In this document: positions 2 through 64,000 of the stretch, in pieces
Layout of the letters: the number at the start of each line of letters is the position of its first letter
Position numbering within the stretch: position 1 is the stretch's first letter
NCBI GenBank assembly: GCA_028824685.1
Contig: JAPPCZ010000087.1
Location: 25,915-89,914, forward strand
Direction: 5' to 3'
Source: Candidatus Poribacteria bacterium
GTDB lineage: Bacteria > Poribacteria > WGA-4E > WGA-3G
Length of the DNA stretch: 64,000 nt
Notes under the pieces: model-generated
What the model saw: only the letters and a program-made list of their open reading frames with translations
The model's database searches: none
Told to the model about the DNA's origin: nothing
Translations under genes and position numbers: made by a program

Positions 2-1165
2 CTGTGGCCCTCGGAATTAACAGATATCAGGACACTTCTGGAAATGTATCTTGAAAACGGTGAAGGAATTCTTCCAAAGCAAAAACTATCATCATTATTT
101 GAATCTACTTTCCAACTTGGTAAAGAAACTGCTCCATCCAATAACGAATGTAGACGAACTATAGCTAGTGCAGGGCTATTATGTGCCATTGCAGTATCAA
201 GTTATACCGACAAAGAAAATCATGTTGCCGAAATTGAAGCTTGGACGCTTTATATTGCTTATGTCCTTGCCCTTGCAGAGAAATGGAACCTTCCAAAAAA
301 GGTCTACAAAAATGAATTTGAAATTGCAACACAATCCCTCTATAATACCTTAGGAAACCTTTGTGCTGAGGTTAAAGATCGAACCTACCTGGTAGAGGGG
401 AATCCGTTGACAGATTCTTATGTCTACAAAGTTCGTATGACATGGTTATTAGGGTTGATGAGTATCTATGCACTATGGCGATGCATTAAAAAAGAACCAA
501 AAAATGAAACGGATGATTTTCTTCGAGATTTTTGTAGGGAAAAACGTAGTCAATTGAAATTATGGGGCGAAGCAGCAATACCCCAATTTCTCGCGTTCTT
601 TTGGTTTTTTAGAAAAATTGATGGAACAAAGGAACCAGACTGTTTAATTTACAAACTGATATCGAAAATATGCAACCTAAATAGACCGGGAAACAATAGA
701 TTTCTTGCTAATCCATACTATGAAGTAGAGGAATTGCTTCCACATCATTTTGCACCAATTCTCATACCACCCCCGGTGCCTCTAAAGGATTCCTTTGAAG
801 GGCAATCTTATGCGTTAGAGGGATTAGTTCACCTATATGTACGCAGAAATTGGAAACAAGCGATGCGAAGTCTTTGGCCTGCTGTAACAAGATTGCAATT
901 CGAATCCTTTGTCCCGAATAATTTTTGTGAATTTTATAGATGGAGGAGTGAAATTGGACATAACAATTTTGACTCTCCCACACATACGCAAGACTGGGAA
1001 GAATTAAAAACTATTTCTTTTGAATCCGAAGGCACTTGCATTCCGCCAACTACAAAAGAACATCCTATTCTCTTATTACTTTTTCTATGTGTATATCCAC
1101 ACAGAATGAATGCAGAAATTATAAGATGGTTGGATACACAGATGAAAGATATACCAAGACCATAA
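2..1165 (+). CDS. hypothetical protein, unknown function; 5' end probably outside the window
   Basis: Long ORF (373 aa from the ATG at 44). The frame stays open back to position 2, so the gene likely starts upstream. No recognisable catalytic motif. AT-rich compared with neighbouring core genes. Lies next to a duplicated purL 5' fragment and a TA cassette. Confidence 0.5.
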   Translation: MWPSELTDIRTLLEMYLENGEGILPKQKLSSLFESTFQLGKETAPSNNECRRTIASAGLLCAIAVSSYTDKENHVAEIEAWTLYIAYVLALAEKWNLPKKVYKNEFEIATQSLYNTLGNLCAEVKDRTYLVEGNPLTDSYVYKVRMTWLLGLMSIYALWRCIKKEPKNETDDFLRDFCREKRSQLKLWGEAAIPQFLAFFWFFRKIDGTKEPDCLIYKLISKICNLNRPGNNRFLANPYYEVEELLPHHFAPILIPPPVPLKDSFEGQSYALEGLVHLYVRRNWKQAMRSLWPAVTRLQFESFVPNNFCEFYRWRSEIGHNNFDSPTHTQDWEELKTISFESEGTCIPPTTKEHPILLLLFLCVYPHRMNAEIIRWLDTQMKDIPRP

Positions 1166-1214
1166 ACCACTGGAGTTTGGTCGCTGTTTAACTTTGGAAA
1201 TAGCGGAGAAAATA

Positions 1215-1409
1215 ATGTCTAATAAGGTAAATGAATTCCAAATTCTAAATGCAAATGATGCTGAATTAATGCGTATCAGCCAAGAAGGGACTTTGTCGCT
1301 GAACTTGAACGAAATGCAGACAATTCAGTCCCATTTTGCGAAACTGCAACGTAATCCAACCGATGTAGAACTTGACCCTATTCCGCGCGATATGGTTTAT
1401 GGCAATTAA
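1215..1409 (+). pseudogene. truncated duplicate of the purL 5' end (first ~60 codons plus RBS)
   Basis: Protein MSNKVNEFQILNANDAELMRISQEGTLSLNLNEMQTIQSHFAKLQRNPTDVEL is near-identical to the N-terminus of PurL at 2402. About 190 bp, including the upstream RBS, is repeated at roughly 90% nucleotide identity (1195-1385 vs 2385-2575). Confidence 0.75.
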
Positions 1410-1451
1410 GCGTCCTGTTTATGTGAGTTTAGAAACTTCCTATAAAAACAA

Positions 1452-1480
1452 TTGATAATCAACACAAGCTGTGGTATACT
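1452..1480 (+). promoter_or_regulatory. sigma70-like promoter for the TA cassette
   Basis: TTGATA (1452-1457), 17-nt spacer, TGGTATACT extended -10 (1472-1480). Sits about 30 nt upstream of an AAGGGG RBS and the ATG at 1513. Confidence 0.55.
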
Positions 1481-1512
1481 CTTTTCAACTGTTTTACCAA
1501 GGGGTAGATACC

Positions 1513-1740
1513 ATGAAAACGCTCCCGTTAGAAACTGACCATAAAATCAAATTACCACGTGATTGGGTCCAAGAACTGGGGTTGGAATCGGCTGTCATGC
1601 TTGAACGGACAGATGAGGGTATCCTTATCCGTCCCTACACAGCACAGACGTGGGACGAGATTTATGCCGAAAAACTCAAAATAGGCACTCCTGCAGCATT
1701 AGACTTGTCCGAGGTAAGCGGTGACGACCTTATCTTCTGA
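1513..1740 (+). CDS. AbrB/MazE-type (SpoVT-AbrB fold) antitoxin-like small protein
   Basis: 75 aa from the ATG at 1513 (MKTLPLETDHKIKLPRDWVQELGLE...). Typical size and N-terminal pattern of a swapped-hairpin antitoxin. Overlaps the downstream PIN gene by about 20 nt. Confidence 0.5.
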   Translation: MKTLPLETDHKIKLPRDWVQELGLESAVMLERTDEGILIRPYTAQTWDEIYAEKLKIGTPAALDLSEVSGDDLIF

Positions 1741-2314
1741 TCAATTTGCCGGACGCGGATTAGACGCAATGCTAATTGTCTATTCCTTGCTTGAGGACCA
1801 TCCCGCCTCTGTTGTCTGCGAATCGTTTATCCGAGAACACGCCAGTTGGCACACGACGACACTTACGTTATTGGAAGCAATATCGATTCTCACAAAGATC
1901 TATGGTGTAGGTTTCAACCTTGCCTCACAGCAGCTCTCCCAATTTTCCGCAGGACCGATTGAAATTATTGAAGTAGACCTACCAATAACCCTCGCGTCGA
2001 TGCAGATAGCCGACGCATTGGAAATTGATATTACTGATGCGGTACTTTTACAGGCAACGCGCGCACGAGGTGCTACCGTCTTGGCAACGGATGACCGTAA
2101 ACTGATACAAGCCTGCGATCAGGTAAATATAGTTGTTGAAAATCCGATTGATGTTTCGCTTCGGCGACAGATGGCGAGTTGGGAATCAGAGAACTTGCCG
2201 CAAAAAGGGTTGCCACGCATTCTTAGGCAGATTCATCATTGGCTACGTCAGAACCATCAACAGGCTGCCGAAGATTTTTGGTCTCGAACAGGAGGCGGAA
2301 GTCACCTGCCTTAA
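1721..2314 (+). CDS. PIN-domain (VapC-like) toxin
   Basis: Acidic residues placed like a PIN domain: LDAML near the N-terminus, E in LLEAISIL, D in DITDAVLL and LATDD. Translationally coupled to the upstream AbrB-like ORF. Start could also be the ATG at 1770. Confidence 0.55.
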   Translation: MTTLSSDQFAGRGLDAMLIVYSLLEDHPASVVCESFIREHASWHTTTLTLLEAISILTKIYGVGFNLASQQLSQFSAGPIEIIEVDLPITLASMQIADALEIDITDAVLLQATRARGATVLATDDRKLIQACDQVNIVVENPIDVSLRRQMASWESENLPQKGLPRILRQIHHWLRQNHQQAAEDFWSRTGGGSHLP

Positions 2315-2401
2315 CTGCAAGGAATCTGCTCAACCGCTTATATGAAACATTACAGGCTTTAAAAAGAAGTTGAGTCTTTACTATAAATTACGGAGAAGAT
2401 A

Positions 2402-4798
2402 ATGTCCAATAAGGTCAACGAATTTCAGATTCTAAATGCAGATGATGCTGAATTAATGCGTATCAGTCAAGAAGGCACTTTGTCGCTGAACTTGAACGAG
2501 ATGCAGACAATTCAGTCCCATTTTGCGAAATTACAACGCAATCCAACCGACGTGGAGCTTGAGACGATTGCACAAACATGGTCGGAGCATTGCGTCCACA
2601 AAACCTTTAAAAGCATTATTCTCTATTCTGAAGAGGGCAAGGAAACAGAACAGATTGATGGCTTGTTTCCAACCTACATTCAACGCGCAACAGAGGTAAT
2701 AGATAAACCGTGGTGTGTCTCTGTCTTTTCAGACAATGCTGGCATCATTGAATTTGATGAGACATTCAATCTCGTTTTCAAGGTGGAAACGCACAACCAT
2801 CCATCAGCCATTGAACCTTACGGTGGTGCGGGGACAGGCATCGGCGGTGTTATCCGTGACTCTCTCGGCACAGGACTCGGTGCGAAACCGATTCTGAATA
2901 CAGATGTTTTCTGCTTTGGATTGCCGGACACACCTTATGAGAAATTACCGAAAGGAACACTCCACCCCAAACGCGTATTCAAAGGCGTTGTTGCTGGTGT
3001 CCGTGATTATGGAAACCGCATGGGGATTCCTACTGCTAACGGTGCAATTCTTTTTGACACACGCTACACTGCAAACCCACTTGTCTTTTGTGGAAACGTC
3101 GGACTAATACCGATAGATAGGTGCGACAAATCTGTTGAACCCGGTGATTTAATTGTTGCTGTTGGCGGGCGTACAGGACGCGATGGAATTCACGGTGCTA
3201 CCTTCTCTTCAGCAGAATTAGATGATACTTCTGAAAGCCTCGGCAGTGTTGTTCAGATCGGTAATCCGATTATGGAAAAGAAGATTGTTGATGCACTTTT
3301 ACAGGCACGCGACCAAAACCTGTACCGTTCTATAACAGACTGCGGCGCTGGTGGGTTCTCATCGGCTGTAGGTGAAATGGGTGAGGATACAGGCGCTGAG
3401 GTACATCTGGAACGAGTCCCATTAAAATACGAAGGGTTAGCACCTTGGGAAATCTGGCTATCGGAAGCACAAGAACGGATGGTAATCTCTGTTCCGCCTG
3501 AAAATCTGGACGAACTGATGGAAATTTGCGAGGCAGAAATGGTTGAGGCAACAGTGCTTGGTAATTTCACAGATACGCACAGATTGCAGGTTTTCTATGA
3601 CGGCGCAATAGTTGCGGATTTAGATATGAAATTTCTGCACAAAGGCTTGCCACAACACGTTAAAAAAGCAACTTGGCAACCACCACAGCACGAAGAAATG
3701 CCATCGCGAGACAGCCAAACCGAGAACTACGCCGAAGACTTGTGCCGACTCCTTGCCAGTCCAAACATCGCCAGTAAAGAATCTGTCATCCGCCAGTACG
3801 ACCATGAGGTTCAAGGAGGGGTTGTTATCAAACCTCTCGTTGGTAAAAAAAACGATGGACCAAGCGATGCATGCGTCACCACACCAGTTATAGGTAGTGA
3901 GAAAGCGGTCATTGTTGCAAACGGCATCAACCCGAAATATAGCGATGTTGATGCGTACATCAGCGCAGCATCGGCAATTGATGAGGCACTCCGAAATATA
4001 GTTGCTGTCGGAGGAACACTTGAAAAAACGGCACTATTAGACAATTTCTGCTGGGGAAATCCCGATAAACCTGACCGACTTGGCGCGTTAGTCCGTGCAG
4101 CAAAGGCGTGTTACGACATTGCTACTGCCTACGGCACGCCCTTCATCTCTGGGAAAGATAGTCTTTACAACGAATACCGAGATACGACAACAGGAGAGCA
4201 ACGCGCAATTCCTTCAACGTTGCTCATATCTGCAATATGCGTGATGCCCAACATTCGCAACGCAGTTACAATGGATGTGAAATCCCCTGGTAACCTCATC
4301 TATGTCGTTGGCAACACTTACGCTGAATTGGGAGGGTCTCACTACTTCGGTATCCACGGTTTCATTGGTAACACTGCTCCAGTTGTCCGTCCAGATGAAG
4401 GTAAGTTAACGATGGAAAAACTCAGTACTGCTATCAATAGTGGTTTGGTGCGTTCCTGCCATGATTGTTCTGAAGGTGGTATCGGTGTAGCAGCAGCGGA
4501 GATGGCATTTTCAGGTGGATATGGCATGTCACTTAATATCAGCAACGTTCCTACTGGAGAAGAAATTACTTCCGACGATTTTCTACTATTTTCTGAGTCG
4601 AATAGTCGTTTTCTTGTTGAAATTGAACCGAAACACCAAGATTCTTTTGAAAACCACATGGTTGGCGTGCCGATAGGTTGCCTCGCTGCTGTTACAGAAA
4701 CACCGAAATTTATTGTCAACGGATTGACAGGCAAATACGTTATAGAAACTACTATTGATATTCTCAAATCAGCGTGGCAAACACCATTGCATTCGTAA
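2402..4798 (+). CDS. purL: phosphoribosylformylglycinamidine synthase subunit PurL (FGAM synthase II)
   Basis: 798 aa. Has the PurM-superfamily glycine-rich motif YGGAGTGIGGVIRD and duplicated AIR-synthase-like halves. Immediately followed by the purQ glutaminase. Confidence 0.9.
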   Translation: MSNKVNEFQILNADDAELMRISQEGTLSLNLNEMQTIQSHFAKLQRNPTDVELETIAQTWSEHCVHKTFKSIILYSEEGKETEQIDGLFPTYIQRATEVIDKPWCVSVFSDNAGIIEFDETFNLVFKVETHNHPSAIEPYGGAGTGIGGVIRDSLGTGLGAKPILNTDVFCFGLPDTPYEKLPKGTLHPKRVFKGVVAGVRDYGNRMGIPTANGAILFDTRYTANPLVFCGNVGLIPIDRCDKSVEPGDLIVAVGGRTGRDGIHGATFSSAELDDTSESLGSVVQIGNPIMEKKIVDALLQARDQNLYRSITDCGAGGFSSAVGEMGEDTGAEVHLERVPLKYEGLAPWEIWLSEAQERMVISVPPENLDELMEICEAEMVEATVLGNFTDTHRLQVFYDGAIVADLDMKFLHKGLPQHVKKATWQPPQHEEMPSRDSQTENYAEDLCRLLASPNIASKESVIRQYDHEVQGGVVIKPLVGKKNDGPSDACVTTPVIGSEKAVIVANGINPKYSDVDAYISAASAIDEALRNIVAVGGTLEKTALLDNFCWGNPDKPDRLGALVRAAKACYDIATAYGTPFISGKDSLYNEYRDTTTGEQRAIPSTLLISAICVMPNIRNAVTMDVKSPGNLIYVVGNTYAELGGSHYFGIHGFIGNTAPVVRPDEGKLTMEKLSTAINSGLVRSCHDCSEGGIGVAAAEMAFSGGYGMSLNISNVPTGEEITSDDFLLFSESNSRFLVEIEPKHQDSFENHMVGVPIGCLAAVTETPKFIVNGLTGKYVIETTIDILKSAWQTPLHS

Positions 4799-6318: not shown

Positions 6319-6987
6319 ATGTTTTATCGAATCACCTTTTTGGTAGTATTTTTCAGTTTTGCAGTTTTTACGGTAGGGTGTCATATTTTGCTTACAGAAC
6401 AAGAATGGAGCGAAAACTACGCGTTGATGGAAGGTGTCAATTCATCCAGTCCGCAAATGATTGATGGAGATCTCAACACTGTCGGTGAAACAGAGACTAT
6501 TGGGCGACGCTACATGTATGGTTCAAGTTGGGGGTCCGCTGTTTCAATCAAGCTACCAGAAAAAAAGAACATCAGAAAAATCGTTATCCATACAGAGAAT
6601 ATCAAAAAGCTTAACATTTACGCAGATAAAGGTGGTAGCGCTCTTTCTGAAACTGACTGGCAATTAATAAAAGAGATAAAATCTGTCAAGGCATATCCTA
6701 TTGTGATTCCTGTCTTATACGCTTTTCCGACAGATCGTATTCGAATTGTAGTTACAGACTTAACAGATGAAGGCGCAAACAGAAGAAAAGAAAGGGCGGA
6801 GTTTTACCGAGGTACTGCACCGATGGAAAGAGGAATGTACGGTTTTGCGGGTGGCAGGAGATTTTATTCCAATTACCAAGCCAGAATCAGCGAAATTGAA
6901 ATTTACGGTTACAAAACTGCTGAAGAAACGGCGGCTGCAAAATCTGATACACAACGTGAAGATGAACTGAATACGATATTGGAATAG
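6319..6987 (+). CDS. hypothetical secreted/lipoprotein
   Basis: N-terminal hydrophobic segment ending VGC (possible lipobox). AGGAG RBS 9 nt before the ATG at 6319 (the track start at 6310 is a GTG). No recognisable domain. Confidence 0.5.
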   Translation: MFYRITFLVVFFSFAVFTVGCHILLTEQEWSENYALMEGVNSSSPQMIDGDLNTVGETETIGRRYMYGSSWGSAVSIKLPEKKNIRKIVIHTENIKKLNIYADKGGSALSETDWQLIKEIKSVKAYPIVIPVLYAFPTDRIRIVVTDLTDEGANRRKERAEFYRGTAPMERGMYGFAGGRRFYSNYQARISEIEIYGYKTAEETAAAKSDTQREDELNTILE

Positions 6988-7031
6988 GATAAAACATTTT
7001 TTGACATTGATTGGCAATTCAAATTTAAGCG

Positions 7032-7541
7032 ATGCAGAGTAGAACCATGAAATACTTTGCCTACGGATCAAATCTCAATATCAAACATATGAAGTGGCGA
7101 TGTCAAGATGCTGTGCCTCTCGGTGCATATACGCTTCAGGGTTACCAACTCGTTTTTCGGTACTACGCTGATTTAATGCCTGCTCAAGACAACTCCGTTA
7201 AGGGAGGACTCTGGGAAATATCAGAAGAGGATGAGAAATTACTTGACAGATATGAGGGCTACCCATCCTTATATGAAAAATACTATGATGGCGACATCAT
7301 GTTTTACCGAATGCTTGATAATGCACGGGACATTGAATTGCCAGGGCTCGGTTATCTTGAAGGGATGTTGGAGGGGATGGAAAACTTCGGACTCTCTCCA
7401 CTTGAAGATTTGAACAACAATCTTGGGGAACCACCGACCCAAGGACTTGTCAGAGAAGGTGACTTACTCCAACGCGCAATGCATCTCATTGCTGATGCAA
7501 TGGGTATTCAACTCTTAGACGAAGATTCGATCACTGTTTGA
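7032..7541 (+). CDS. gamma-glutamyl cyclotransferase-like (AIG2/GGCT fold) protein
   Basis: YFAYGSNL motif at the N-terminus (MKYFAYGSNLN...), the hallmark YGSNL of GGCT/AIG2-like proteins. About 165 aa. Confidence 0.65.
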   Translation: MQSRTMKYFAYGSNLNIKHMKWRCQDAVPLGAYTLQGYQLVFRYYADLMPAQDNSVKGGLWEISEEDEKLLDRYEGYPSLYEKYYDGDIMFYRMLDNARDIELPGLGYLEGMLEGMENFGLSPLEDLNNNLGEPPTQGLVREGDLLQRAMHLIADAMGIQLLDEDSITV

Positions 7542-7714: not shown

Positions 7715-7805
7715 AGGGAACTCCGATTCCCGACGGCTAATAGGTTGAGTCGTGATTCGGAGATCACTCCCGCTGAATGCCAAACGCGCATTCAGCGTTG
7801 ATTCA
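7715..7805. repeat. cluster of short palindromic repeat modules (GGGAACTCCGATTCCCGAC / GATTCGGAGATCACTCC / GCCAAACGCGCATTCAGCGTTGATTCACAG)
   Basis: The same modules recur at 17600-17640, 47320-47420, 50560-50700 and 53770-53900. Confidence 0.8.
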
Positions 7806-7847
7806 CAGAAGAAGTGTAAACTTATTTTTCCAATTCACTATAAGCAA

Positions 7848-7878
7848 AAAGCCGTTGCTGATTAAGCAACGGCTTTAG
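7848..7878 (-). terminator. hairpin terminator (AAAGCCGTTGC-loop-GCAACGGCTTT)
   Basis: 11-bp perfect stem. On the minus strand it is followed by TTTTGC. Lies downstream of the minus-strand transposase remnant. Confidence 0.45.
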
Positions 7879-7916
7879 TTGTTATACTAGGGTGTGTAAA
7901 GTTTTGGTTATAAGTA

Positions 7917-8353
7917 TCATGCTGCTTGTTTGAGTTCATTCCAATATCTGTCCCACGCCCCATTTTTCACTAAACACCGTAAGGCAAGCACCTTATTGAT
8001 ACCTTCTTTTTTCCATCTCATAACAGCTTGTTTACATCTTTGTCCTACAACATGTTGACACGCACTCTCAATCACACCACTCCCGATATGATACCCTTTT
8101 TCACGAAACACTTTGTATTGCATACGCTCGGCATGTTTTCAAAATACCTCACTTCTCTTTCTAAAATATCCAAAACTTCCGACTGCTGTGCTGCGAAGCC
8201 ACGAATGCATGCTACCACAGCTGTGATGTCCCCATCAAAAAGTAGCGGTTCTGTCGCTTTTAGCCAAGACCCGATAACTTCAATCTCTGTCTCGCCAAAG
8301 GCAACTTCGGTGTCCCACCAGATGCCAGTTGTGGATAATCTTTGTAAACACAA
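7917..8353 (-). pseudogene. truncated, frameshifted DDE transposase remnant (C-terminal tail resembles the ISKra4/ISNCY-group pattern GSGxIES...MRW...LR)
   Basis: 68-aa ORF ...HIGSGVIESACQHVVGQRCKQAVMRWKKEGINKVLALRCLVKNGAWDRYW plus an overlapping 93-aa ORF in another frame. No N-terminal catalytic part is present. Abuts the MITE at 8364. Confidence 0.45.
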
Positions 8354-8363
8354 CCCAACTCAA

Positions 8364-8653
8364 CAGGGTTATTCAGTTTTCAATATTTTTCATGTTTGTT
8401 TGCTATGCCGTTAATTTAATATGTTGCCATCTTGTCCGTGTCTTTAGTCCCGCTGAATGCCATAAGACGAATGCCATACGCGCATTCGTCTTATGGCATT
8501 CAGCGGGACTAAAAAACTGGAAGGGGTACTCGTTTTCTATAAACATAGCGTCCCTACGGGACTAAAGAACAATGTTCATGTTTCTGGGTATTAACTTTCA
8601 GTAAGTCTCAATACCAGAAAACTCTTAAAACTGAATAACCCTGCTAGCTCAAA
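8364..8653. mobile_element. MITE-like non-autonomous element, copy 1 (17-bp TIR CAGGGTTATTCAGTTTT)
   Basis: Perfect 17-bp terminal inverted repeats at 8364-8380 and 8637-8653. Degenerate 9-bp flanks CCAACTCAA / CTAGCTCAA (7/9 match). Contains a 28-bp-arm perfect palindrome (8449-8518) and TAGTCCCGTAGGGACG-family modules. Second copy at 42764-43093. Confidence 0.75.
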
Positions 8654-28910: not shown

Positions 28911-29254
28911 GCTTGAGTTGAGTAGATGGTCGCGTCCCATAATGGGATGAGGAAAGTCCGGACTCCGTAGGGCAGGGTGCTGGGTAACCCCCAGGAGCGG
29001 TAACGCTATGGAAAGTGCAACAGAAAATAGACTACAACGTATTAAAACGTTGTACAGGTGAAACGGTGCGGTAAAAGCGCACCAGTCCATAAGGTGACTT
29101 ATGGTGCTGGCAAACCCCATCTGGAGCAAGGTAAAATGTGGACATTTAGAGGTGTGCCCGCCTCGTCCCGGGTAACCGCTTGAGGTTAATGGCAACATTG
29201 ATCCCAGATGAATGATCATCATATACAGAATCCGGCTTATTCTCAACTCAAGCC
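28911..29254 (+). ncRNA. rnpB: RNase P RNA, bacterial type A
   Basis: Universally conserved GGAAAGTCCGG...AGGGCAGGGTGCTGGGTAAC, GTGCAACAGAAA, GGTGCGGTAAAAGCGCACC, AGATGAATGA and ACAGAATCCGGCTTA. P1 helix pairs GCTTGAGTTGAG (28911) with CTCAACTCAAGC (29243-29254). Confidence 0.92.
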
Positions 29255-33898: not shown

Positions 33899-33918
33899 AC
33901 ATCAACGGTGAATATTTT

Positions 33919-34968
33919 ATGAACACTTCAAAACAACTTTCACGTCGATCATTTCTACGCAGCCTGAGTGTAGGCGTTGCGCTGCCTTGTATCGGTGCAA
34001 TAGGACCATTGGCATCTTGGGCAGACACATTCGCAGATGGTAAAGTCGTAAAACGTTACCCGGACCCTGCGGTAGAAGTCCTTGACCAGCGTTTCGCAAA
34101 ATACAAAATTGGAAACGCTGTTGTAGAAAGGTTATGGACAGGTGCGCGGTGGTCGGAGGGACCCGTCTGGTTCGGTGATGGTGGATTTCTCCTCTGGAGC
34201 GATATTCCAAACAACCGTATTCTAAAATGGCAGGAAGCCACCGGAAAAGTGAGTGTCTATCGCAAACCGTCTAACTATACCAATGGACATACGCGTGACA
34301 GGCAAGGTAGACTCATCAGTTGCGAACACGGCACACGGCGCGTTACACGAACCGAATATGACGGAACGATTACTGTACTCATAGATAATTTTGAAGGCAA
34401 ACGGTTCAATGCTCCAAACGATGTCGTTGTCCATCCCGATGGACATATCTGGTTCACGGATCCTGGATACGGCATCATGTTCAACTACGAAGGGCATAAA
34501 GCCGAATTTGAATTGCCGACTTCCGTTTATCGCCTCAATCCGGAAACTGGAAAAGCCACAGTCGTAACGAGTGAACCCGATAAACCGAACGGACTCTGCT
34601 TTTCGCCTGACTATAAAAAACTCTATGTTGCCGACACAGGAACACCAAAAAACATCGTAGTCTTTGATGTCGTAGACGGTGAGCGATTAGGCAAAAAACA
34701 GGTATTTTATAAGACAGCACCCGGCAACGCTGATGGGTTGCGATGTGATACTGATGGAAACGTATGGGCAGGTGCTGGTTGGGTCGGTGAAGGTTACGAT
34801 GGTGTACATATCTTTGCACCAGACAGAACGCTCATCGGTAAGATTCATCTCCCAGAGATTTGTTCTAATATCTGCTTCGGCGGCGTTAAAAGAAACAGAC
34901 TCTTTATGACAGCGAGTCAATCTCTATACTCTGTTTATGTTGAAGCACAAGGAGCACCGTTATTTTAG
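33919..34968 (+). CDS. SMP-30/gluconolactonase/LRE-like beta-propeller hydrolase, Tat-secreted
   Basis: Twin-arginine signal MNTSKQLSRRSFLRSLSVGVALP. Gluconolactonase-family features (GPVWFGDGGFLLWSDIPNNRI). 349 aa. Confidence 0.7.
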   Translation: MNTSKQLSRRSFLRSLSVGVALPCIGAIGPLASWADTFADGKVVKRYPDPAVEVLDQRFAKYKIGNAVVERLWTGARWSEGPVWFGDGGFLLWSDIPNNRILKWQEATGKVSVYRKPSNYTNGHTRDRQGRLISCEHGTRRVTRTEYDGTITVLIDNFEGKRFNAPNDVVVHPDGHIWFTDPGYGIMFNYEGHKAEFELPTSVYRLNPETGKATVVTSEPDKPNGLCFSPDYKKLYVADTGTPKNIVVFDVVDGERLGKKQVFYKTAPGNADGLRCDTDGNVWAGAGWVGEGYDGVHIFAPDRTLIGKIHLPEICSNICFGGVKRNRLFMTASQSLYSVYVEAQGAPLF

Positions 34969-35084: not shown

Positions 35085-35263
35085 TGACAATACCTAATAT
35101 CCGTGAAAACAACAAAAACAATTAGTTAACTGGCACAAGTCGTTATAGTTGCAAATTATCACAAATTGAATTATAATATTATATCAACTCCGTACAAATT
35201 CACAGATTATAATTGTGATCTGTTTCACAACTGAAACAGGACAAAGGAGTAAAAGATACACTT

Positions 35264-36613
35264 ATGAAAACATCAAAACAACTTTCACGTAGAACGTTTT
35301 TACGCGGGTTAGGTGTAAGTATTGCGCTACCTTGGTTAGAATCGATGGGACCGCTCACAAGTTGGGCAACCGCAGCCACAAAAGGGGTAACAGGACAAGT
35401 AACACCGAATCGGATGGCATTCCTCTATGTACCGAATGGAAAAATCATGGAGAATTGGACACCGACACAGGCAGGCGCAAACTATGAACTCACGGACATC
35501 TTAAAACCACTTGTAAATGTAAAAGAAAAAACGCTGGTTCTGAGTGGATTAACAGCCGATAAGGCACGCGCCAATGGCGATGGCGGGGGTGATCACGCCA
35601 GAGCAATGGCGGCGTTCCTCACAGGCGCGCAACCGCGCAAAACAAGCGGCACAGATATCCATGCAGGAATCTCTGTTGACCAAGCCGCAGCCTCACATAT
35701 CGGTGATCAAACGCGATTACCTTCGCTTGAACTCGGCATTGATCCCGGTTACAGAGCAGGAAATTGCGACTCCGGTTATAGCTGCGTTTATTCAACAACG
35801 ATGGCATGGAAGTCTGCAACGCAACCGCTTCCAAAAGAGGTTAATCCAAAACTCGCTTTTGAACGCCTATTTTCAACCGAACCTAACGCCCAAAAAATAC
35901 AGCGCGATGAACAAAGAAAAAGTATCCTTGATTTTGTGAGACAGGATTCAAAAGACTTAATCCAACAAGTTAGCGGAAACGATGCGCGAAAACTTGATGA
36001 ATACTTCTCTGCCATTCGCGACATTGAAATGCGGATAGAATCGGCAGAAAAGTTCCCGCCAATAGACAATCCAGACTATATTGCGCCAGAGGAAATTCCA
36101 GCAGATTTTCAAGAACATGTTTGTCTGATGTTGGATCTCATCGTACTTGCATTCCAAACAGATGTGACCCGAATTGTAACCTTTACCTTAGCAAATGAGG
36201 GTAGCAACAAGACATATCCGACTATCAATGTTACTGATGGACACCATAATTTGTCACATCATGGTGGAAATAAAGCAAAAATAGATAAAATTCGGAAAAT
36301 AGACATTTTCCACACACAGCAGCTTGCATACCTGCTGGAGAAACTTGACTCCATTCCAGAAGGGGAAGGTACGCTACTTGACCATTCTATGATTTTATAT
36401 GGCAGTGGGAATTCTGATGGCAATCGCCACAGCCATCACGACCTACCAATTCTATTATCTGGTCAAGGGTGTGGCACACTGAAAAGTGGGCGACATGTCC
36501 AGTATCCAAAGGAAACGCCACTCAATAACCTTTGGTTGTCTATGCTTAATCGAATGGATGTTAATTTGCAGCAATTAGGGGATAGTACGGGTAGTTTAGA
36601 AGGGTTATCCTAA
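35264..36613 (+). CDS. DUF1552-family protein, Tat-secreted
   Basis: Twin-arginine signal MKTSKQLSRRTFLRGLGVSIALP. 449 aa. This family is the usual partner of DUF1592 proteins. Confidence 0.6.
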   Translation: MKTSKQLSRRTFLRGLGVSIALPWLESMGPLTSWATAATKGVTGQVTPNRMAFLYVPNGKIMENWTPTQAGANYELTDILKPLVNVKEKTLVLSGLTADKARANGDGGGDHARAMAAFLTGAQPRKTSGTDIHAGISVDQAAASHIGDQTRLPSLELGIDPGYRAGNCDSGYSCVYSTTMAWKSATQPLPKEVNPKLAFERLFSTEPNAQKIQRDEQRKSILDFVRQDSKDLIQQVSGNDARKLDEYFSAIRDIEMRIESAEKFPPIDNPDYIAPEEIPADFQEHVCLMLDLIVLAFQTDVTRIVTFTLANEGSNKTYPTINVTDGHHNLSHHGGNKAKIDKIRKIDIFHTQQLAYLLEKLDSIPEGEGTLLDHSMILYGSGNSDGNRHSHHDLPILLSGQGCGTLKSGRHVQYPKETPLNNLWLSMLNRMDVNLQQLGDSTGSLEGLS

Positions 36614-39600: not shown

Positions 39601-39654
39601 CTAAATGTTAAGAAAAACAAAACTGAATGACTCTGCTATATTACAAATTTTACA

Positions 39655-42763: not shown

Positions 42764-43093
42764 CAGGGTTATTCAGTTTTCAATATTTTTGATGGTTTTT
42801 TGCTATGACGTTAATTTGATGTGTTGCCATCTTGTCCGTGTCTTTAGTCCCATAGGGACGCTATGTTTATAGAAAAATGTTATCTACCTCTCTTGAGTTC
42901 CGGGGAATGCCTAAATGGCATTCATACCGTTGATTTGGTAGGAACGGCATAGAAGATTTAACATATTGTCCTCGCCAAATACAAAACGCGTATTTGGCGA
43001 GGATTCATGGGACTAAAGAACAATTTCATGTTTGTGGATATGAACTTTCAGTAAACCTCAATACCAGAAAACTCTTAAAACTGAATAACCCTG
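42764..43093. mobile_element. MITE-like element, copy 2 (17-bp TIR CAGGGTTATTCAGTTTT) with 9-bp target-site duplication ACTCTCTAT
   Basis: TIRs at 42764-42780 and 43077-43093. Identical direct flanks ACTCTCTAT at 42755-42763 and 43094-43102. The left ~90 bp and right ~50 bp are shared with copy 1 at 8364-8653. No coding capacity. Confidence 0.85.
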
Positions 43094-61155: not shown

Positions 61156-62172
61156 TTATATTTCTCTACCAACTGCGATAGCGATCGGTTTTAGTTCTTG
61201 CATGAGTGTCTCAAATTGATCAGGAAACAGAGATTGCGCGCCGTCACCCGTCATAGAATTATCTGGGTCATGATGAACTTCAAGTAACAGTCCATCTGCT
61301 CCAGAGGCGACAGATGCTTTTGTCATATCGCACACCAAACTCCGGATACCGGTACCATGGCTCGGATCAACGACGATGGGCAAATGGCTTAATTCGTGAA
61401 CAACAGGAACAGCGTTGAGATCAAGTGTGTTACGCGTGTGAGTTTCAAAGGTGCGGATACCTCGTTCACATAAAATCACATCTGGATTTCCTTCAGAAAG
61501 TATATATTCCGCAGCAAGCAACCATTCCTCAATTGTAGAAGACATCCCGCGCTTCAGAATAACGGGTTTTCGGGCACGACCCACTTCACGCAACAGATAG
61601 AAGTTTGTCATATTCCGCGTGCCAAGTTGAAAAACGTCTGTATATTCCCCGACAAGTTCAACTTCATGGGGTGTCATGACTTCTGTAACAATACCTAATC
61701 CTGTTTCCTCTTTGGCTGCGACAAGCATTTTCAATGCATCTGTTCCGAAGCCTTGGAAACTATAAGGACCTGTGCGAGGTTTAAATGCACCACCTCTAAT
61801 AAAACCTGCGCCTGCTTTTTTCACCAGTTTCGCTATGGTTACAATCTGTTCAGTACTCTCTACTGCACAAGGTCCCGCCATAACTGCTAACTTCCGTCCC
61901 CCAATTTTAGTCCCGTTTGTGGAGATAACAGTCGGTTCATCCCGAAATTGGCGGCTTGCTAATTTATATGGGGCAGTGATCGGCATCGTCCTTTCAACGC
62001 CAGACATTGACTCCATCGGAATATCGCCAAGCAATGTTTTATCTCCTATTACACCGATGACGGTGCGTTGTTCGCCAGTTGAAATCTGTGCTTTCAACCC
62101 TACACTCTCAATCCGTTTGACAATTGCGTCAATTTGATCGGGTGTTGCATCCGTTTTGGTAACGATTACCAT
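61156..62172 (-). CDS. 3-deoxy-7-phosphoheptulonate (DAHP) synthase, type I-beta with N-terminal ferredoxin-like regulatory domain
   Basis: N-terminal ~70-aa FL/ACT-like domain (MVIVTKTDATPDQIDAIVKRIESVGLKAQIS...), then the KDO8P/DAHP synthase TIM barrel (GPCAVES...). ATG at 62172 with GGAGGG RBS. The track start at 62208 is a TTG. Confidence 0.75.
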   Translation of the reverse strand: MVIVTKTDATPDQIDAIVKRIESVGLKAQISTGEQRTVIGVIGDKTLLGDIPMESMSGVERTMPITAPYKLASRQFRDEPTVISTNGTKIGGRKLAVMAGPCAVESTEQIVTIAKLVKKAGAGFIRGGAFKPRTGPYSFQGFGTDALKMLVAAKEETGLGIVTEVMTPHEVELVGEYTDVFQLGTRNMTNFYLLREVGRARKPVILKRGMSSTIEEWLLAAEYILSEGNPDVILCERGIRTFETHTRNTLDLNAVPVVHELSHLPIVVDPSHGTGIRSLVCDMTKASVASGADGLLLEVHHDPDNSMTGDGAQSLFPDQFETLMQELKPIAIAVGREI

Positions 62173-62678
62173 GGTTATCAATTCCCTCCGACAATAACTC
62201 TGTTTCAAGTCAATGTTGATGATTACTAAAAAAATAACCCAACATCGAATCGTTATCGACGTCGGGTAGTGATGTATGAGGCCAATTAAAACTTTTTCAT
62301 GAGTGCTTACAAACTATCGCCACCTACCGCCGCAGTACAAAAACGGGTACAACCCGAGCGTAAAGAGCGCCCAAAGGCTGAAATAATAGTCCCGTAAAAA
62401 TGTGAGAACGGACTGTGTTCCACTCGTTGGTACTGTAGAGGTGATCGTGTGTTCAAACTTCTGCATCACAAAGAATCCCTAATTTCTTTGGTTGTAAGCC
62501 TTTCTCAGTTTTCTTACTTATAAAACGTTATTCCAAACAAAACGTTTAAAATTAAAACTACTTTTTAATATGATAACATACTTTATAAGGTTAAGTCAAG
62601 TTTTTAATTCATTTTATCCTTTGTAACAAAACAGTTTTAGTCAATCCAATTTTTTCTGATAGGGAGCGCATTGCCCAT

Positions 62679-62920
62679 CTATTCCATGCTTTTCTCAAGA
62701 ACAACACGATGATAACGCTTTTTACCTGCACGCAGAAGTAACGCGTTTTCCTCTAACAGATTAGCATCAATGACGGTATCTATCACCTTATACTGCTTCT
62801 CATTGATATATGCGCCCCCCTGTTGAATCAGGCGGCGCGCTTCACTTCTGGAAGTAACTAAGCCTACTTCATAGCACAACTCCATTATCGGAATGCCAGT
62901 GTTGAGTATTAGCGCCCCTC
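62679..62920 (-). pseudogene. duplicated 3' fragment of tyrS (S4-like C-terminal domain, 68 codons)
   Basis: About 240 bp at roughly 93-95% identity to 63261-63500. Encodes MELCYEVGLVTSRSEARRLIQQGGAYINEKQYKVIDTVIDANLLEENALLLRAGKKRYHRVVLEKSME. Compare the TyrRS C-terminus ...MELFHEVGLTTSRSEARRLIQQGGAYINEKQYKAIDIVIDANLLEENALLLRAGKKRYHRVVVEESIE. Confidence 0.7.
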
Positions 62921-62950
62921 AGCATAACTGACGACTCTAAGCACATAACA

Positions 62951-63181
62951 CTATTTTTTTGATTGATCACTTTCTTGTGTTGGTGGTGGTTCATTAAATT
63001 CCACACCCCGCGCTTCAGCCTCTCTTCGCCTGCGATCCCACGCTGCAACTTCTCTGTAAACTTCCGATTTTGCCTCGGCTCTTGCCTCCGCCTTTGCCTC
63101 CGCTATCATTTCTTTTTCTTTTTTGATATGTTCTCTGAAACGCCGTAACATGATGTCTGCTCCCTCCCCTAAAATAATCAA
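62951..63181 (-). CDS. small Glu/Ala/Lys/Arg-rich coiled-coil protein, unknown function (cargo between the tyrS 3' duplicates)
   Basis: 76 aa, MIILGEGADIMLRRFREHIKKEKEMIAEAKAEARAEAKSEVYREVAAWDRRRREAEARGVEFNEPPPTQESDQSKK. Low complexity, so its coding status is uncertain. Confidence 0.35.
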   Translation of the reverse strand: MIILGEGADIMLRRFREHIKKEKEMIAEAKAEARAEAKSEVYREVAAWDRRRREAEARGVEFNEPPPTQESDQSKK

Positions 63182-63260
63182 TAAAGTTGATGCTGCTATT
63201 ATTTTTGAATTGCGATCATAGTAGATTTGGAATTAATTGGATATTCTGCAGGTCGCCCAT

Positions 63261-64000
63261 CTATTCTATGCTTTCCTCAACCACAACACGATGATAACGT
63301 TTTTTACCTGCACGCAGAAGCAACGCGTTTTCTTCTAACAGATTAGCATCAATGACAATATCTATCGCCTTATACTGCTTCTCATTGATATACGCACCCC
63401 CCTGTTGAATTAGGCGGCGCGCTTCACTTCTGGAAGTAGTTAAGCCTACTTCATGGAACAACTCCATTATCGGAATGCCTGTGTCAAGTCTGTCACCTGA
63501 AATGGTGGTTGTAGGCATTGCATCAAGGTCAAGTCCACCGCCGCCAAATGCAGCGCGCGATGTTTCCTGTGCCTTGTCTGCCTCAGCTTTTCCATGTGCC
63601 AGTTTCGTTGCTTGGTATGCAAGCAACGCTTTTGCTTCTCGAATCTCATCATGTTCCAAACCACCAAGTCGCTTCACCTCATCCATCGGTAAAAAGGTGA
63701 AATATGCTAAGAACCGCTCAACATCACGGTCATCCGTGTTAATCCAGTACTGGTAGAATTGGTAGGGTGAAGTTTTATTTGCATCAAGCCATACTGCGCC
63801 GCCAGCGGTTTTTCCCATTTTTGCGCCACCGGCTGCCGTGAGTAATGGAAAGGTGAGACCATATACACGTTTCCCCTCAATCCTACGCACGAGGTCAACG
63901 CCCGCAAGGATATTACCCCACTGGTCATCACCACCGAGTTGGAGAACACAATTGTATTTTTGGAAAAGACACAAATAATCGTACGCTTGTAGCAGTTGGT
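63261..64000 (-). CDS. tyrS: tyrosine--tRNA ligase (C-terminal part; gene continues beyond the window end)
   Basis: KMSKS-type motif AKMGKT. C-terminal S4 RNA-binding domain. The ORF is open to the window edge. Confidence 0.8.
   Translation of the reverse strand, partial: QLLQAYDYLCLFQKYNCVLQLGGDDQWGNILAGVDLVRRIEGKRVYGLTFPLLTAAGGAKMGKTAGGAVWLDANKTSPYQFYQYWINTDDRDVERFLAYFTFLPMDEVKRLGGLEHDEIREAKALLAYQATKLAHGKAEADKAQETSRAAFGGGGLDLDAMPTTTISGDRLDTGIPIMELFHEVGLTTSRSEARRLIQQGGAYINEKQYKAIDIVIDANLLEENALLLRAGKKRYHRVVVEESIE

What the first reader, a model, noticed from the sequence alone, without database searches (positions are those of the whole stretch)
62679..63500. About 240-bp duplication of the tyrS 3' end bracketing a small coiled-coil ORF, mirroring the purL scar
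The last ~68 codons of tyrS plus ~12 nt of 3' flank (63261-63500) are repeated at 62679-62920 at about 93-95% identity. Both copies are in the same orientation and are separated by a 340-bp insert encoding a 76-aa Glu/Ala/Lys/Arg-rich ORF. The structure matches the purL 5' duplication at the other end of the window: a gene-terminus direct repeat of 190-240 bp and ~90-95% identity flanking a small cargo. That suggests a recurrent insertion mechanism that duplicates gene ends, much longer than a transposon TSD. The orphan S4-domain fragment could still be expressed as a standalone 68-aa protein.
Basis: seen in the sequence. Interest (0 to 1): 0.6.

Follow-up and report, generated by a model that had tools for sequence, protein, structure and literature searches.

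The report
Displaced tyrS gene-end recombination scar
In this sponge-symbiont (Poribacteria) genome, the last ~76 codons of the tyrosyl-tRNA synthetase gene are present twice around a tiny accessory gene. This is a real, inherited recombination scar in which incoming DNA supplied a new gene end and pushed the old one aside, a known kind of event rather than a new insertion machine.

Summary
A 235-nt direct repeat (62673-62907 and 63255-63489, 91.5% identical, ungapped) brackets 347 bp that encode a 66/76-aa helical protein.

It is not an assembly artefact. Two other assembly records are 100% identical over 5 kb, a ~9% diverged Poribacteria genome (L007) has the same architecture and the same junction, and the longest exact match between the copies is 27 nt.

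Relatives show two alleles downstream of tyrS: a short one, and one that carries the cargo. The window holds both in tandem, joined by a 19-nt filler. The gene-attached copy is a mosaic, resident-like in its 5' half and foreign in its 3' half. The orphan keeps the native downstream flank, lacks a ribosome-binding site and has changes at invariant residues.

No integrase, inverted termini or short target duplication are present. The cargo is exchanged horizontally: its synonymous divergence is 2-13 times lower than that of neighbouring aroG.

The purL 5' duplication has the same geometry around a VapBC-like module, and one relative (L100) carries three purL 5' copies in series.

Best explanation: terminal displacement by host homologous recombination plus one illegitimate joint, later passed on or removed by ordinary recombination. 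Closest analogues: icd/icdC around e14, Rhs/T6SS orphan arrays, and single-crossover duplications.

The parts
63261..64000 (-). tyrS (tyrosyl-tRNA synthetase), 3' part. The gene runs off the right end of the window.
   Evidence: Pfam tRNA-synt_1b 2.4e-35 and SYY_C-terminal 2.4e-10. The full 415-aa gene is seen in L090.
63255..63489 (-). Repeat copy B: the functional 3' end of tyrS (about 76 codons, stop, and 6 nt). It is a mosaic: nt 1-123 are resident-type and nt 124-235 are foreign-type.
   Evidence: B has 2 private differences in nt 1-123 and 9 in nt 124-235 (p=0.028).
63358..63367 (-). Interval in copy B that contains the inferred recombination breakpoint (repeat nt 123-132). The equivalent interval in copy A is 62776-62785.
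   Evidence: Max-chi2 breakpoint test: P=0.0004 with flank sites, Fisher 0.0007 without.
62908..63254 (-). Cargo segment between the repeats (347 bp).
   Evidence: Homologous DNA lies directly after tyrS, without any second copy, in L017, L021, L006, L092 and L093. A longer form in L021 is 79% identical to an unrelated site in L087-L089.
62951..63151 (-). Cargo ORF: 66 aa from the ATG with a strong SD, or 76 aa if started at TTG 63181. It is Glu/Ala/Lys/Arg-rich and is predicted to be a single long helix.
   Evidence: 12 homolog clusters, none with a Pfam, NCBIfam or PADLOC hit. Pooled pN/pS is 0.27 and indels are in-frame. The AF2 model has a helix at residues 4-57 with pLDDT 78. SD context.
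62908..62926 (-). 19-nt junction filler (TATGCTGAGGGGCGCTAAT on the tyrS strand) between the cargo end and the start of copy A. This is the illegitimate joint.
   Evidence: Present only in the window and L007 among all loci searched. It is absent from the cargo-only alleles, where the cargo runs straight into the common spacer.
62673..62907 (-). Repeat copy A: the displaced (orphan) tyrS 3' end, contiguous with the native downstream spacer. It contains the intact 68-aa ORF 62679-62885.
   Evidence: 95% identical to the single tyrS end of the closest relative L003, including the flank TAGATGGGCAATGCGC. 8 private changes, all in nt 1-123, including F->C and H->Y in ELFHEVGL. No SD.
62209..62672 (-). 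Native tyrS-aroG spacer: promoter-like site 62570-62599, conserved 51-aa ORF 62314-62469, and intrinsic terminator 62237-62267.
   Evidence: 96.6% identical to L003 and conserved in all close relatives. Promoter/terminator scan.
61156..62208 (-). DAHP synthase (aroG-type), the conserved downstream neighbour.
   Evidence: Pfam DAHP_synth_1 5e-74.
1198..1382 (+). Orphan purL 5' end with its native upstream ~40 nt and SD. This is the mirror case.
   Evidence: It is closer to the single copy of L095 (90.8%) than the attached copy is (87.6%).
1383..1428 (+). purL-site-specific junction segment that follows the orphan.
   Evidence: The same 46 nt follows both orphans in L100. It is not part of the TA module found at other sites.
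1429..2334 (+). VapBC-like toxin-antitoxin module: AbrB-like ORF 1513-1740 and PIN ORF 1721-2314.
   Evidence: PIN Pfam 1.9e-8. AbrB match is weak, 0.0088. The same ~900-bp module is 78-84% identical at other chromosomal sites, L102-L110.
2385..2569 (+). Gene-attached purL 5' copy (the start of purL 2402-4798), preceded by cargo-side upstream sequence.

Best explanation
The structure is a recombination scar, a 'terminal displacement'. It is not a transposon or an integrase-driven insertion.

Poribacteria carry two alternative alleles downstream of tyrS: a short spacer, and a spacer with a small accessory gene.

Proposed sequence of events (inferred, except where marked as shown):
1. DNA from a lineage with the accessory-gene allele entered a genome with the short allele.
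2. On one side it was joined by host homologous recombination inside the last ~110-235 nt of tyrS. This is shown: the attached copy is resident-like in its 5' half and foreign in its 3' half.
3. On the other side it was joined illegitimately through a 19-nt filler to a point 228 nt upstream of the resident stop codon.
4. The resident 3' end was therefore pushed downstream instead of being replaced.

The result is that tyrS stays intact with a hybrid end, the small gene sits behind it, probably co-transcribed, and the old end survives as an untranslated relic next to its native spacer.

Once formed, the unit is inherited, passed between lineages and probably deleted again by ordinary homologous recombination, with the duplicated ends and conserved flanks serving as homology. 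The purL 5' duplication around a VapBC-like module arose the same way. Repeated rounds, or unequal crossing-over, build arrays such as the three purL 5' copies in L100.
For: - Two alleles exist in relatives, and the window contains both in tandem with a unique joint.
- The orphan is contiguous with, and 95% identical to, the native end and flank of the closest relative L003.
- Mosaicism of the repeat: informative sites read BBBBBABBAB|AAAAAAAAA, Fisher 0.0007, max-chi2 permutation P=0.0004. B's private differences number 2 in nt 1-123 and 9 in nt 124-235.
- The same joint is shared by L007 although the body of each orphan resembles its own lineage.
- Cargo synonymous divergence is 2-13 times lower than that of aroG between the same genomes, for example 0.028 vs 0.366, p=1e-5.
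- WIN-L003 divergence is patchy (0-11 differences per 100 nt), which shows frequent recombination.
- There is no integrase or transposase in or next to the cargo in any of about 90 tyrS loci.
- The tyrS-aroG and purL-upstream spacers are hotspots filled with TA modules, IS fragments and defence genes.
- purL shows the same geometry and serial copies.
- Precedents: gene-end duplications of 109-950 bp from single crossovers in E. coli (PMC3240628), and HFIR-type 'sequential displacement' proposed for T6SS/Rhs orphan arrays (PMC5361080).
Against: - The original event cannot be observed. The joint is a single filler of unknown origin, with no clear microhomology.
- The same purL joint plus 46 nt occurs twice in L100, which a site-specific system would also predict.
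- The chimera signal could partly reflect an unrelated recombination tract, since such tracts are common here.
- The 5' half of copy A carries markers of the resident clade (C58, T52, G60). That fits displacement but does not fit a simple reciprocal single crossover.
- Nothing is known about competence or DNA transfer routes in Poribacteria.
- The divergence between the two orphans is far from neutral (10 non-synonymous: 20 synonymous, P=6e-7). This needs either refreshment by recombination or selection on the orphan.
Confidence: 0.6

Rival explanations
1. Campbell-type single crossover. A small circular molecule (582 bp for tyrS, about 1.19 kb for purL) carries one copy of the gene end plus the cargo and integrates by host homologous recombination into the resident gene end. 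It can loop out again by the reverse reaction. The duplicated gene end would then be the element's portable homology arm.
For: - A duplication that flanks the insert exactly is the expected product, and was the commonest outcome experimentally in E. coli (PMC3240628).
- There is a breakpoint inside the repeat.
- L003's single copy looks like B-5' plus A-3', as expected for a loop-out product or the pre-integration state.
- Tandem arrays at purL in L100 share the same joint.
- The cargo spreads horizontally.
Against: - The 5' half of copy A should then be foreign, but it carries resident-clade markers.
- A first illegitimate joint is still needed to create the circle's junction.
- No route is known by which a 582-bp circle would transfer or persist.
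- Cargo-only alleles without any orphan are the commoner state (L017, L021, L006, L092, L093).
Confidence: 0.2
2. Remnant or satellite of a site-specific integrative element whose attachment site lies inside tyrS (and another inside purL). Like e14 or phage 21 in icd, the element brings a replacement gene end. The integrase has been lost or acts in trans.
For: - The geometry is identical to icd/icdC around e14 (PMC13626634).
- The newest cassette lies nearest the gene in the L100 array, as in tandem island accretion (tycheposon preprint).
- There is a conserved 46-nt segment after each purL orphan.
- An Rpn/Transposase_31 gene lies next to purL in L097, and an Rpn-like fragment is in L100 cargo 2.
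Against: - No tyrosine or serine recombinase lies in or beside the cargo at tyrS in about 90 loci, nor at purL in the loci examined.
- There is no significant shared core at the two gene-internal boundaries: the best shared stretch is 8 nt, reached by 28% of random window pairs.
- The breakpoint lies mid-repeat rather than at the boundary.
- Most cargo-bearing genomes have no orphan.
- The TA module sits at other sites without gene-end repeats.
Confidence: 0.12
3. Assembly artefact: two strain variants of the tyrS end were concatenated by the assembler.
For: The source is a metagenome-assembled genome, and the copies differ by about 8.5%, which is a strain-to-species level of divergence.
Against: - The arrangement is identical in two further assembly records.
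- The same architecture and joint occur in a diverged genome on a 905-kb contig.
- The longest shared exact run is 27 nt.
- The junction has a private 19-nt filler.
Confidence: 0.02
4. The orphan is maintained by selection as a stand-alone 68-aa S4-like RNA-binding protein, possibly working with the cargo protein.
For: - The ORF is intact in both the window and L007 despite about 14% divergence.
- Divergence between the two orphans shows pN/pS 0.15 and is far from neutral (P=6e-7).
Against: - There is no Shine-Dalgarno sequence before its ATG, whereas the cargo, aroG and purL have one.
- Private replacements hit the F and H of ELFHEVGL, which are at least 90% conserved among 82 functional copies.
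- pN/pS against the nearest functional relative is 0.30, compared with 0.13 for functional pairs.
- Each orphan resembles its own lineage's functional gene, so the low pN/pS is explained by recent descent from, or conversion by, functional copies.
- Most cargo-bearing genomes lack the orphan.
Confidence: 0.08

Closest known systems
icd / icdC flanking prophage e14 (and phage 21) in E. coli K-12
   Same: - The integrated DNA supplies a diverged replacement 3' end for a housekeeping gene, and the original 3' end is left as a C-terminal pseudogene at the far side.
- Loss of the insert recombines the two copies into a chimeric gene (PMC13626634). L003's single copy looks like such a product or precursor.
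   Different: - e14 is a 15-kb element with its own site-specific recombination system. Here the insert is 347 bp with one tiny ORF and no recombinase.
- The cargo also exists next to tyrS without any duplication in most relatives.
C-terminal displacement and orphan arrays in Rhs, CDI and T6SS effector-immunity loci (homology-facilitated illegitimate recombination model)
   Same: - An incoming module is anchored by homology in a conserved gene part.
- The resident end is displaced downstream rather than deleted.
- Serial rounds give arrays, and the arrays are later moved between strains by homologous recombination (PMC5361080). L100's three purL 5' copies are comparable.
   Different: - Those systems diversify toxin tips and retain immunity genes, which gives an obvious selective reason.
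- Here the displaced pieces are ends of housekeeping genes (a tyrS 3' end and a purL 5' end) with no evident function.
- Here the cargo is a TA module or an unknown small protein.
Single-crossover (Campbell-type) integration of circular DNA carrying a gene-end fragment
   Same: It produces a direct duplication of the homologous gene end (109-950 bp) around the inserted DNA, using host recombination only (PMC3240628).
   Different: - That was an experimental plasmid system in E. coli. No circular form is shown here.
- The 5' half of the orphan looks resident rather than donor-derived.
Tycheposons and other tRNA-targeting islands with tandem accretion
   Same: - Successive integrations at one site push older cargo outward.
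- They leave partial copies of the target gene between cargos, including degraded integrase-less remnants (bioRxiv 10.1101/2020.12.28.424599).
   Different: - The targets there are tRNA genes, with short att repeats and identifiable tyrosine recombinases.
- Here the repeats are 185-235 nt of protein-coding sequence at about 90% identity, and no recombinase was found.
Neisseria 'minimal mobile elements' (cassette exchange between conserved flanking genes by transformation and homologous recombination; own knowledge, papers listed but not read)
   Same: A spacer between two conserved housekeeping genes holds different small cassettes in different strains and is exchanged through the flanks. The tyrS-aroG and purL-upstream spacers behave this way.
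   Different: Minimal mobile elements involve clean replacement without duplication of a flanking gene end.

Membership tests
Site-specific integrative element with intragenic att site (e14/phage 21-icd type) | Direct repeat of the target gene end at both borders, with the element-side copy keeping the gene intact | tested here: met
   235-nt repeat. tyrS is intact, 415 aa with all domains in L090.
Site-specific integrative element with intragenic att site (e14/phage 21-icd type) | A tyrosine or serine recombinase encoded in or next to the element | tested here: not met
   The cargo is one 66-aa helical ORF with no family hit. No recombinase was found downstream of tyrS in 80 + 4 loci. Only an IS630 DDE_3 (L080) and an IS3 fragment (L011) were found.
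Site-specific integrative element with intragenic att site (e14/phage 21-icd type) | A defined identical core where strand exchange occurs, at a fixed position | tested here: inconclusive
   The longest identical run is 27 nt. The inferred breakpoint is mid-repeat, at nt 123-132. The motif shared with the purL boundary is not above chance.
Site-specific integrative element with intragenic att site (e14/phage 21-icd type) | Excision to a circular form | not testable with these tools
   No read data are available.
Terminal displacement by homology-facilitated illegitimate recombination (Rhs/T6SS orphan-array type) | Homologous anchor on one side of the incoming DNA | tested here: met
   The attached copy B is resident-type in nt 1-123 and foreign-type in nt 124-235.
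Terminal displacement by homology-facilitated illegitimate recombination (Rhs/T6SS orphan-array type) | Non-homologous (illegitimate) joint on the other side | tested here: met
   The 19-nt filler at 62908-62926 is found only in the window and L007. The cargo-only alleles lack it. No clear microhomology was identified.
Terminal displacement by homology-facilitated illegitimate recombination (Rhs/T6SS orphan-array type) | The resident end is retained downstream, contiguous with the native flank | tested here: met
   Copy A plus its flank are 95% identical to L003. At purL, the orphan keeps the native upstream sequence.
Terminal displacement by homology-facilitated illegitimate recombination (Rhs/T6SS orphan-array type) | Serial arrays of displaced ends | tested here: met
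   Met at purL: L100 has three copies and two cargos. Not seen at tyrS, which has at most two copies.
Campbell-type single crossover of a circular molecule | Both copies are reciprocal chimeras of resident and incoming sequence | tested here: inconclusive
   B is chimeric. A's 3' half is resident-type, but A's 5' half also carries resident-clade markers plus 8 private changes.
Transposon / IS / MITE | Terminal inverted repeats and a short target-site duplication, or a transposase | tested here: not met
   No inverted repeats lie at the cargo ends. The repeat is 235 nt of coding sequence. The boundaries of the unit shared with the second site (L087-89) do not match any candidate termini.
Diversity-generating retroelement (template/variable repeat pair) | Mismatches confined to adenines of one copy, with a reverse transcriptase nearby | tested here: not met
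   The 20 differences run in all directions (16 transitions). A is the differing base at only 4 sites in the orphan and 6 in the attached copy. The neighbours are tyrS, aroG and leuA.
Type II toxin-antitoxin, VapBC (the purL-side cargo) | PIN-domain toxin preceded by a small overlapping DNA-binding antitoxin gene | tested here: met
   PIN 1.9e-8, above the Pfam cutoff. The 75-aa upstream ORF overlaps by 20 nt. Its AbrB match is weak, E=0.0088 and below cutoff.

The most novel reading that the evidence does not exclude
The cargo plus one copy of a housekeeping-gene terminus forms a minimal, enzyme-free mobile cassette. The copied gene end would be a portable homology arm that lets the cassette enter any related genome by the host's own RecA-mediated recombination, as a single crossover of a looped-out circle or as two crossovers in the same target. 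It would always restore the essential gene. Successive entries would stack into arrays (as at purL in L100), and addictive cargo such as VapBC would favour retention. This would be a class of 'homology-hitchhiking' cassettes that target the ends of conserved genes in sponge symbionts.
Probability: 0.2. Interest if true: 0.65.

Novelty: new member of a known kind. Interest (0 to 1): 0.35.

Why it matters
- **Evolution of these genomes:** it documents, base by base, how accessory genes enter and leave the genomes of uncultivated sponge symbionts. This happens at hotspots beside essential genes, through host recombination, without dedicated mobile-element enzymes, and with little risk to the essential gene.
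- **Annotation:** the 68-aa 'S4 domain protein' and the 71-aa 'FGAR-AT linker' ORFs called in these MAGs are displaced gene ends, not new genes.
- **If the hitchhiking-cassette reading were right:** gene-end repeats could be used as a search key for a hidden layer of mobile cargo in genomes that lack recognisable integrases.

Tried and rejected
- **DGR template/variable repeat pair:** rejected from the substitution spectrum.
- **MITE or transposon with TIR/TSD:** a tentative TCAG duplication and a 5-nt inverted end in the cargo allele did not match the boundaries of the unit shared with the second site.
- **Shared recombinase core at the gene-internal repeat boundaries (CTTGA[C/G]AC at tyrS and purL):** not above chance, since 28% of random window pairs do as well.
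- **Cargo related to Rpn/Transposase_31 proteins:** hhalign probability below 1%.
- **Metagenome scan for the purL junction (CAATTAAGYGTCCTGTTT):** 36 hits, none homologous to either locus.
- **Integrase search downstream of tyrS:** none found.
- **Chimera test at purL:** no signal with L095 or L099 (P=0.42 and 0.84). These references are 9-12% diverged, so the test has little power.
- **Relaxed-constraint test on the orphans by counting residues unseen in functional copies:** 2 and 1, within the functional distribution, so not significant.
- **Fold search of the cargo model:** not run, because a single helix gives meaningless matches.
- **Script problems:** one script timed out. One used a wrong tyrS frame and a misaligned L021 trim. 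Both were redone, and the numbers are not used.
- **Near-identity of A's 3' half and the next ~150 nt to L003:** first read as special, but similar low-divergence tracts occur elsewhere in the region.
Full report
**1. The observation**

The repeat exists. The repeat finder reports 62673-62907 and 63255-63489: 235 nt, ungapped, 91% identical, 582 nt apart. A pairwise alignment shows sharp boundaries on both sides. I count 20 differences (91.5% identity), 16 of them transitions, running in all directions.

Copy B is the end of tyrS, which lies on the minus strand and runs off the window. It covers about 76 codons, the stop codon and 6 nt. Copy A contains an intact 68-aa ORF (62679-62885) that matches the SYY_C-terminal and S4 families.

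Between the copies lie 347 bp with a small ORF. It is 76 aa from a TTG, but more probably 66 aa from the ATG at 63151, which is preceded by GGGGAGGGAG. The purL 5' repeat it mentions (1198-1382 vs 2385-2569, 89%) is also real.

**2. Not an artefact**

- The organism is a Candidatus Poribacteria sponge symbiont.
- Two other assembly records that carry the identical cargo protein (L090 and L091, from different assemblers) are 100% identical to the window over 5001 nt, including both copies. I could not verify that the underlying samples are independent.
- More importantly, L007 has the same architecture: tyrS end 6487-6715, cargo 6759-7027, orphan 7028-7262, followed by the same spacer and aroG. 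L007 is a 905-kb contig of a different species-level genome, 91-93% identical in the flanks.
- L007 also has the same joint, GCTGAGGGG[C/T]GCTAAT|ACTCAAC. This joint occurs nowhere else in the loci searched.
- The longest exact run shared by the two copies is 27 nt.

**3. What relatives show**

Among 80 tyrS loci, the close clade keeps the order tyrS, spacer, aroG. Two alleles exist immediately after the tyrS stop codon.

- **Short allele:** stop + ATGGGCAATGCGCTCCCTATCAG, then the common spacer. Found in L001, L002 and the closest relative L003.
- **Cargo allele:** stop + a hairpin + the small ORF, then the common spacer, with no second tyrS copy. Found in L017, L021, L006, L092 and L093. L023 keeps only relics of the cargo ends.

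The window and L007 contain both alleles in tandem: [tyrS end + cargo] + 19-nt filler + [tyrS end + short-allele flank].

Other relatives carry unrelated insertions in the same spacer: IS630 and IS3 fragments, an MNT/HEPN-like pair, a kinase fragment, lipoproteins and enzymes. None carries a recombinase. The spacer is therefore an insertion hotspot.

**4. Which copy is which**

Copy A, with its flank, is 95% identical to L003's single tyrS end. Copy B is 92% identical.

The differences are not evenly spread. Taking sites where A and B differ and L003 agrees with one of them, L003 agrees with B at 8 of 10 sites in repeat nt 1-123 and with A at all 9 sites in nt 124-235. The Fisher test gives 0.0007. 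With four flank sites included, the max-chi2 permutation gives P=0.0004, with the breakpoint between nt 123 and 132.

Private changes split as follows:

| Copy | nt 1-123 | nt 124-235 | p |
|---|---|---|---|
| B (attached) | 2 | 9 | 0.028 |
| A (orphan) | 8 | 0 | 0.007 |

So the attached copy is a mosaic: resident-type in its 5' part and foreign-type in its 3' part. At the sites where B is foreign-type it carries the states common in other lineages.

The 5' half of copy A still carries markers restricted to the window/L003 clade (C58, T52, G60 in the alignment), together with private replacements. These include F->C and H->Y in the ELFHEVGL motif, which is at least 90% conserved in 82 functional copies. 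L007's orphan has H->D at the same motif.

I read copy A as the displaced resident end, slowly decaying. I read B as the resident 5' part fused to an incoming 3' part.

One caution applies. WIN-L003 divergence is patchy everywhere, at 0-11 differences per 100 nt. Ordinary recombination tracts are therefore frequent, and part of the mosaic signal may come from one of them.

**5. The cargo**

- The ORF has only 12 homolog clusters, no hit in Pfam, NCBIfam or PADLOC, and no relation to Rpn proteins.
- It behaves as a real gene. Pooled pN/pS is 0.27 and its indels are in-frame, in the AEAK repeat.
- AlphaFold predicts one long helix (residues 4-57, pLDDT 78) and a disordered tail.
- It also occurs at an unrelated site, between an abhydrolase gene and lysA, next to HigBA-like and DUF2283 genes. 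A roughly 495-bp long form in L021 is 79% identical to that site.
- Between lineages, its synonymous divergence is 2-13 times lower than that of aroG in the same genomes. Examples: L007-L017 0.028 vs 0.366, p=1e-5, and L092-L093 0.075 vs 0.368, p=3e-4. The cargo has therefore spread horizontally more recently than the lineages split.
- There is no terminator-like site between the tyrS stop and the cargo in the window, so co-transcription with tyrS is likely. This is an inference.

**6. The orphan as a gene?**

Both orphans are intact. Their mutual divergence is far from neutral: 10 non-synonymous to 20 synonymous changes, P=6e-7.

However, each orphan resembles its own lineage's functional gene. 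That explains the pattern by recent descent from, or conversion by, functional copies. In addition:
- The orphan ATG has no Shine-Dalgarno sequence (CTGGCATTCCGATAATG), unlike the cargo, aroG and purL.
- pN/pS against the nearest functional relative is 0.30, compared with 0.13 for functional pairs. The site counts are too small for significance.
- Most cargo-bearing genomes have no orphan.

I consider stand-alone function unlikely, at about 8%.

**7. The purL site**

The cargo here is a ~900-bp VapBC-like module: PIN 1.9e-8, and an overlapping 75-aa ORF with a weak AbrB-like match. The same module is found at other chromosomal sites at 78-84% identity.

- The orphan keeps the native ~40 nt upstream and its SD. 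These are shared with the single-copy relatives L095, L097 and L099.
- The gene-attached copy is preceded by cargo-side sequence.
- L095's single copy is nearer to the orphan (90.8%) than to the attached copy (87.6%).
- L100 has three purL 5' copies in series: orphan 1, a 46-nt junction, a second cargo (two ORFs, one with a weak Rpn-like match), orphan 2, the same junction, the TA module, then purL.

The geometry therefore recurs and can stack. A chimera test at purL had no power.

A census of diverged direct repeats in the window plus 110 loci (1.26 Mb) found gene-terminus duplications only at tyrS and purL. That sample is biased towards these two loci.

**8. Mechanism**

There are no inverted termini, no short target duplication and no recombinase, and the two sites share no core above chance.

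The evidence fits host recombination. The proposed event has a homologous joint inside the gene end and one illegitimate joint that displaced, rather than replaced, the resident end. Later inheritance, transfer between lineages and probable deletion would proceed by ordinary homologous recombination.

L003's copy has the composition expected either of the pre-event state or of a B x A loop-out product. Because L007 is an outgroup to the window and L003 (aroG: 95.4% WIN-L003 against 92.8-92.9% to L007) and shares the joint, loss in the L003 lineage is the more parsimonious reading if inheritance was vertical.

A Campbell-type single crossover of a small circle is a close variant that I cannot exclude. 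Experimentally it is the commonest source of gene-end duplications (PMC3240628). A site-specific element remnant is less likely, because a defining feature, the recombinase, was looked for and not found.

**9. Comparison with known systems and verdict**

- The architecture is that of icd/icdC around e14 (PMC13626634).
- The process resembles the 'sequential displacement' proposed for T6SS effector-immunity and Rhs arrays (PMC5361080).
- Tandem accretion recalls tRNA-targeting islands.

What differs here is the combination of housekeeping-gene termini, cargo of 0.35-1 kb, and no recombinase.

I classify this as a new member of a known kind, of moderate interest (0.35). There is a roughly 20% chance that the gene-end copy works as a portable homology arm for enzyme-free cassettes, which would be more interesting.

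Noticed in passing
window 8364-8643 and 42764-43093 (a related end at 39619-39635): MITE-like element of about 280-330 bp with perfect 17-nt terminal inverted repeats, CAGGGTTATTCAGTTTT ... AAAACTGAATAACCCTG. There are two full copies 93% identical in their ends. The pattern has 5 matches in the window against 0.02 expected, and one further match in L022.
   Followed up: partly
window 62237-62599 (minus strand): A conserved unit lies directly upstream of the DAHP synthase gene. It has a promoter-like site (TTGACT-18-TATCAT), a 51-aa ORF rich in aromatic residues (…DYYFSLWALFTLGLYPFLY…), and then a strong intrinsic terminator 30 nt before aroG. It is conserved in all close relatives. It could be a leader/attenuator for an aromatic amino-acid gene, or a small membrane protein.
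   Followed up: no
L100:1973-4848: Three purL 5' copies in series, with two different cargos. The ORF at 2931-3344 in the second cargo has a weak match to the C-terminal part of Rpn-family recombination-promoting nucleases (E=4e-5, below cutoff). L097 has a full Transposase_31 (Rpn-like) gene immediately upstream of purL.
   Followed up: partly
L102:4169-4676 and 7716-8224: A 511-nt direct repeat (92%), each copy including a 100-aa ORF, brackets the VapBC-like module plus a 357-aa ORF and a Fic-domain gene. This is another repeat-cargo-repeat structure in a defence-gene neighbourhood.
   Followed up: no
L081-L089 (abhydrolase-lysA spacer): A second home of the small cargo gene, beside HigB/HigA-like (Gp49/HTH_37) and DUF2283 genes. 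L088 carries two partial tandem copies of the cargo unit.
   Followed up: partly
window 44-1165: A 373-aa ORF directly upstream of the purL orphan has no hit in Pfam, NCBIfam or PADLOC and no counterpart upstream of purL in L095-L101. It may be a further accessory insertion at the purL hotspot.
   Followed up: partly
window 28914-29254: Bacterial RNase P RNA class A (286 bits). It is the only Rfam family above threshold in the window.
   Followed up: no
window 33917-34040 and 35262-35385: A 124-nt direct repeat at 70% identity sits at the starts of two ORFs in the same orientation (33919-34968 and 35264-36613). These are probably paralogous N-termini rather than a displaced gene end.
   Followed up: no
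L021:1650-1920 and the window cargo region 63182-63254: The window's cargo is a deletion derivative of a longer form. L021 has about 270 extra nt, in which the ORF extends upstream into a hydrophobic N-terminal segment (MLIVCVILHQRFLENYKVIDSLYFVV…). L006 carries a disrupted copy with an in-frame stop.
   Followed up: partly
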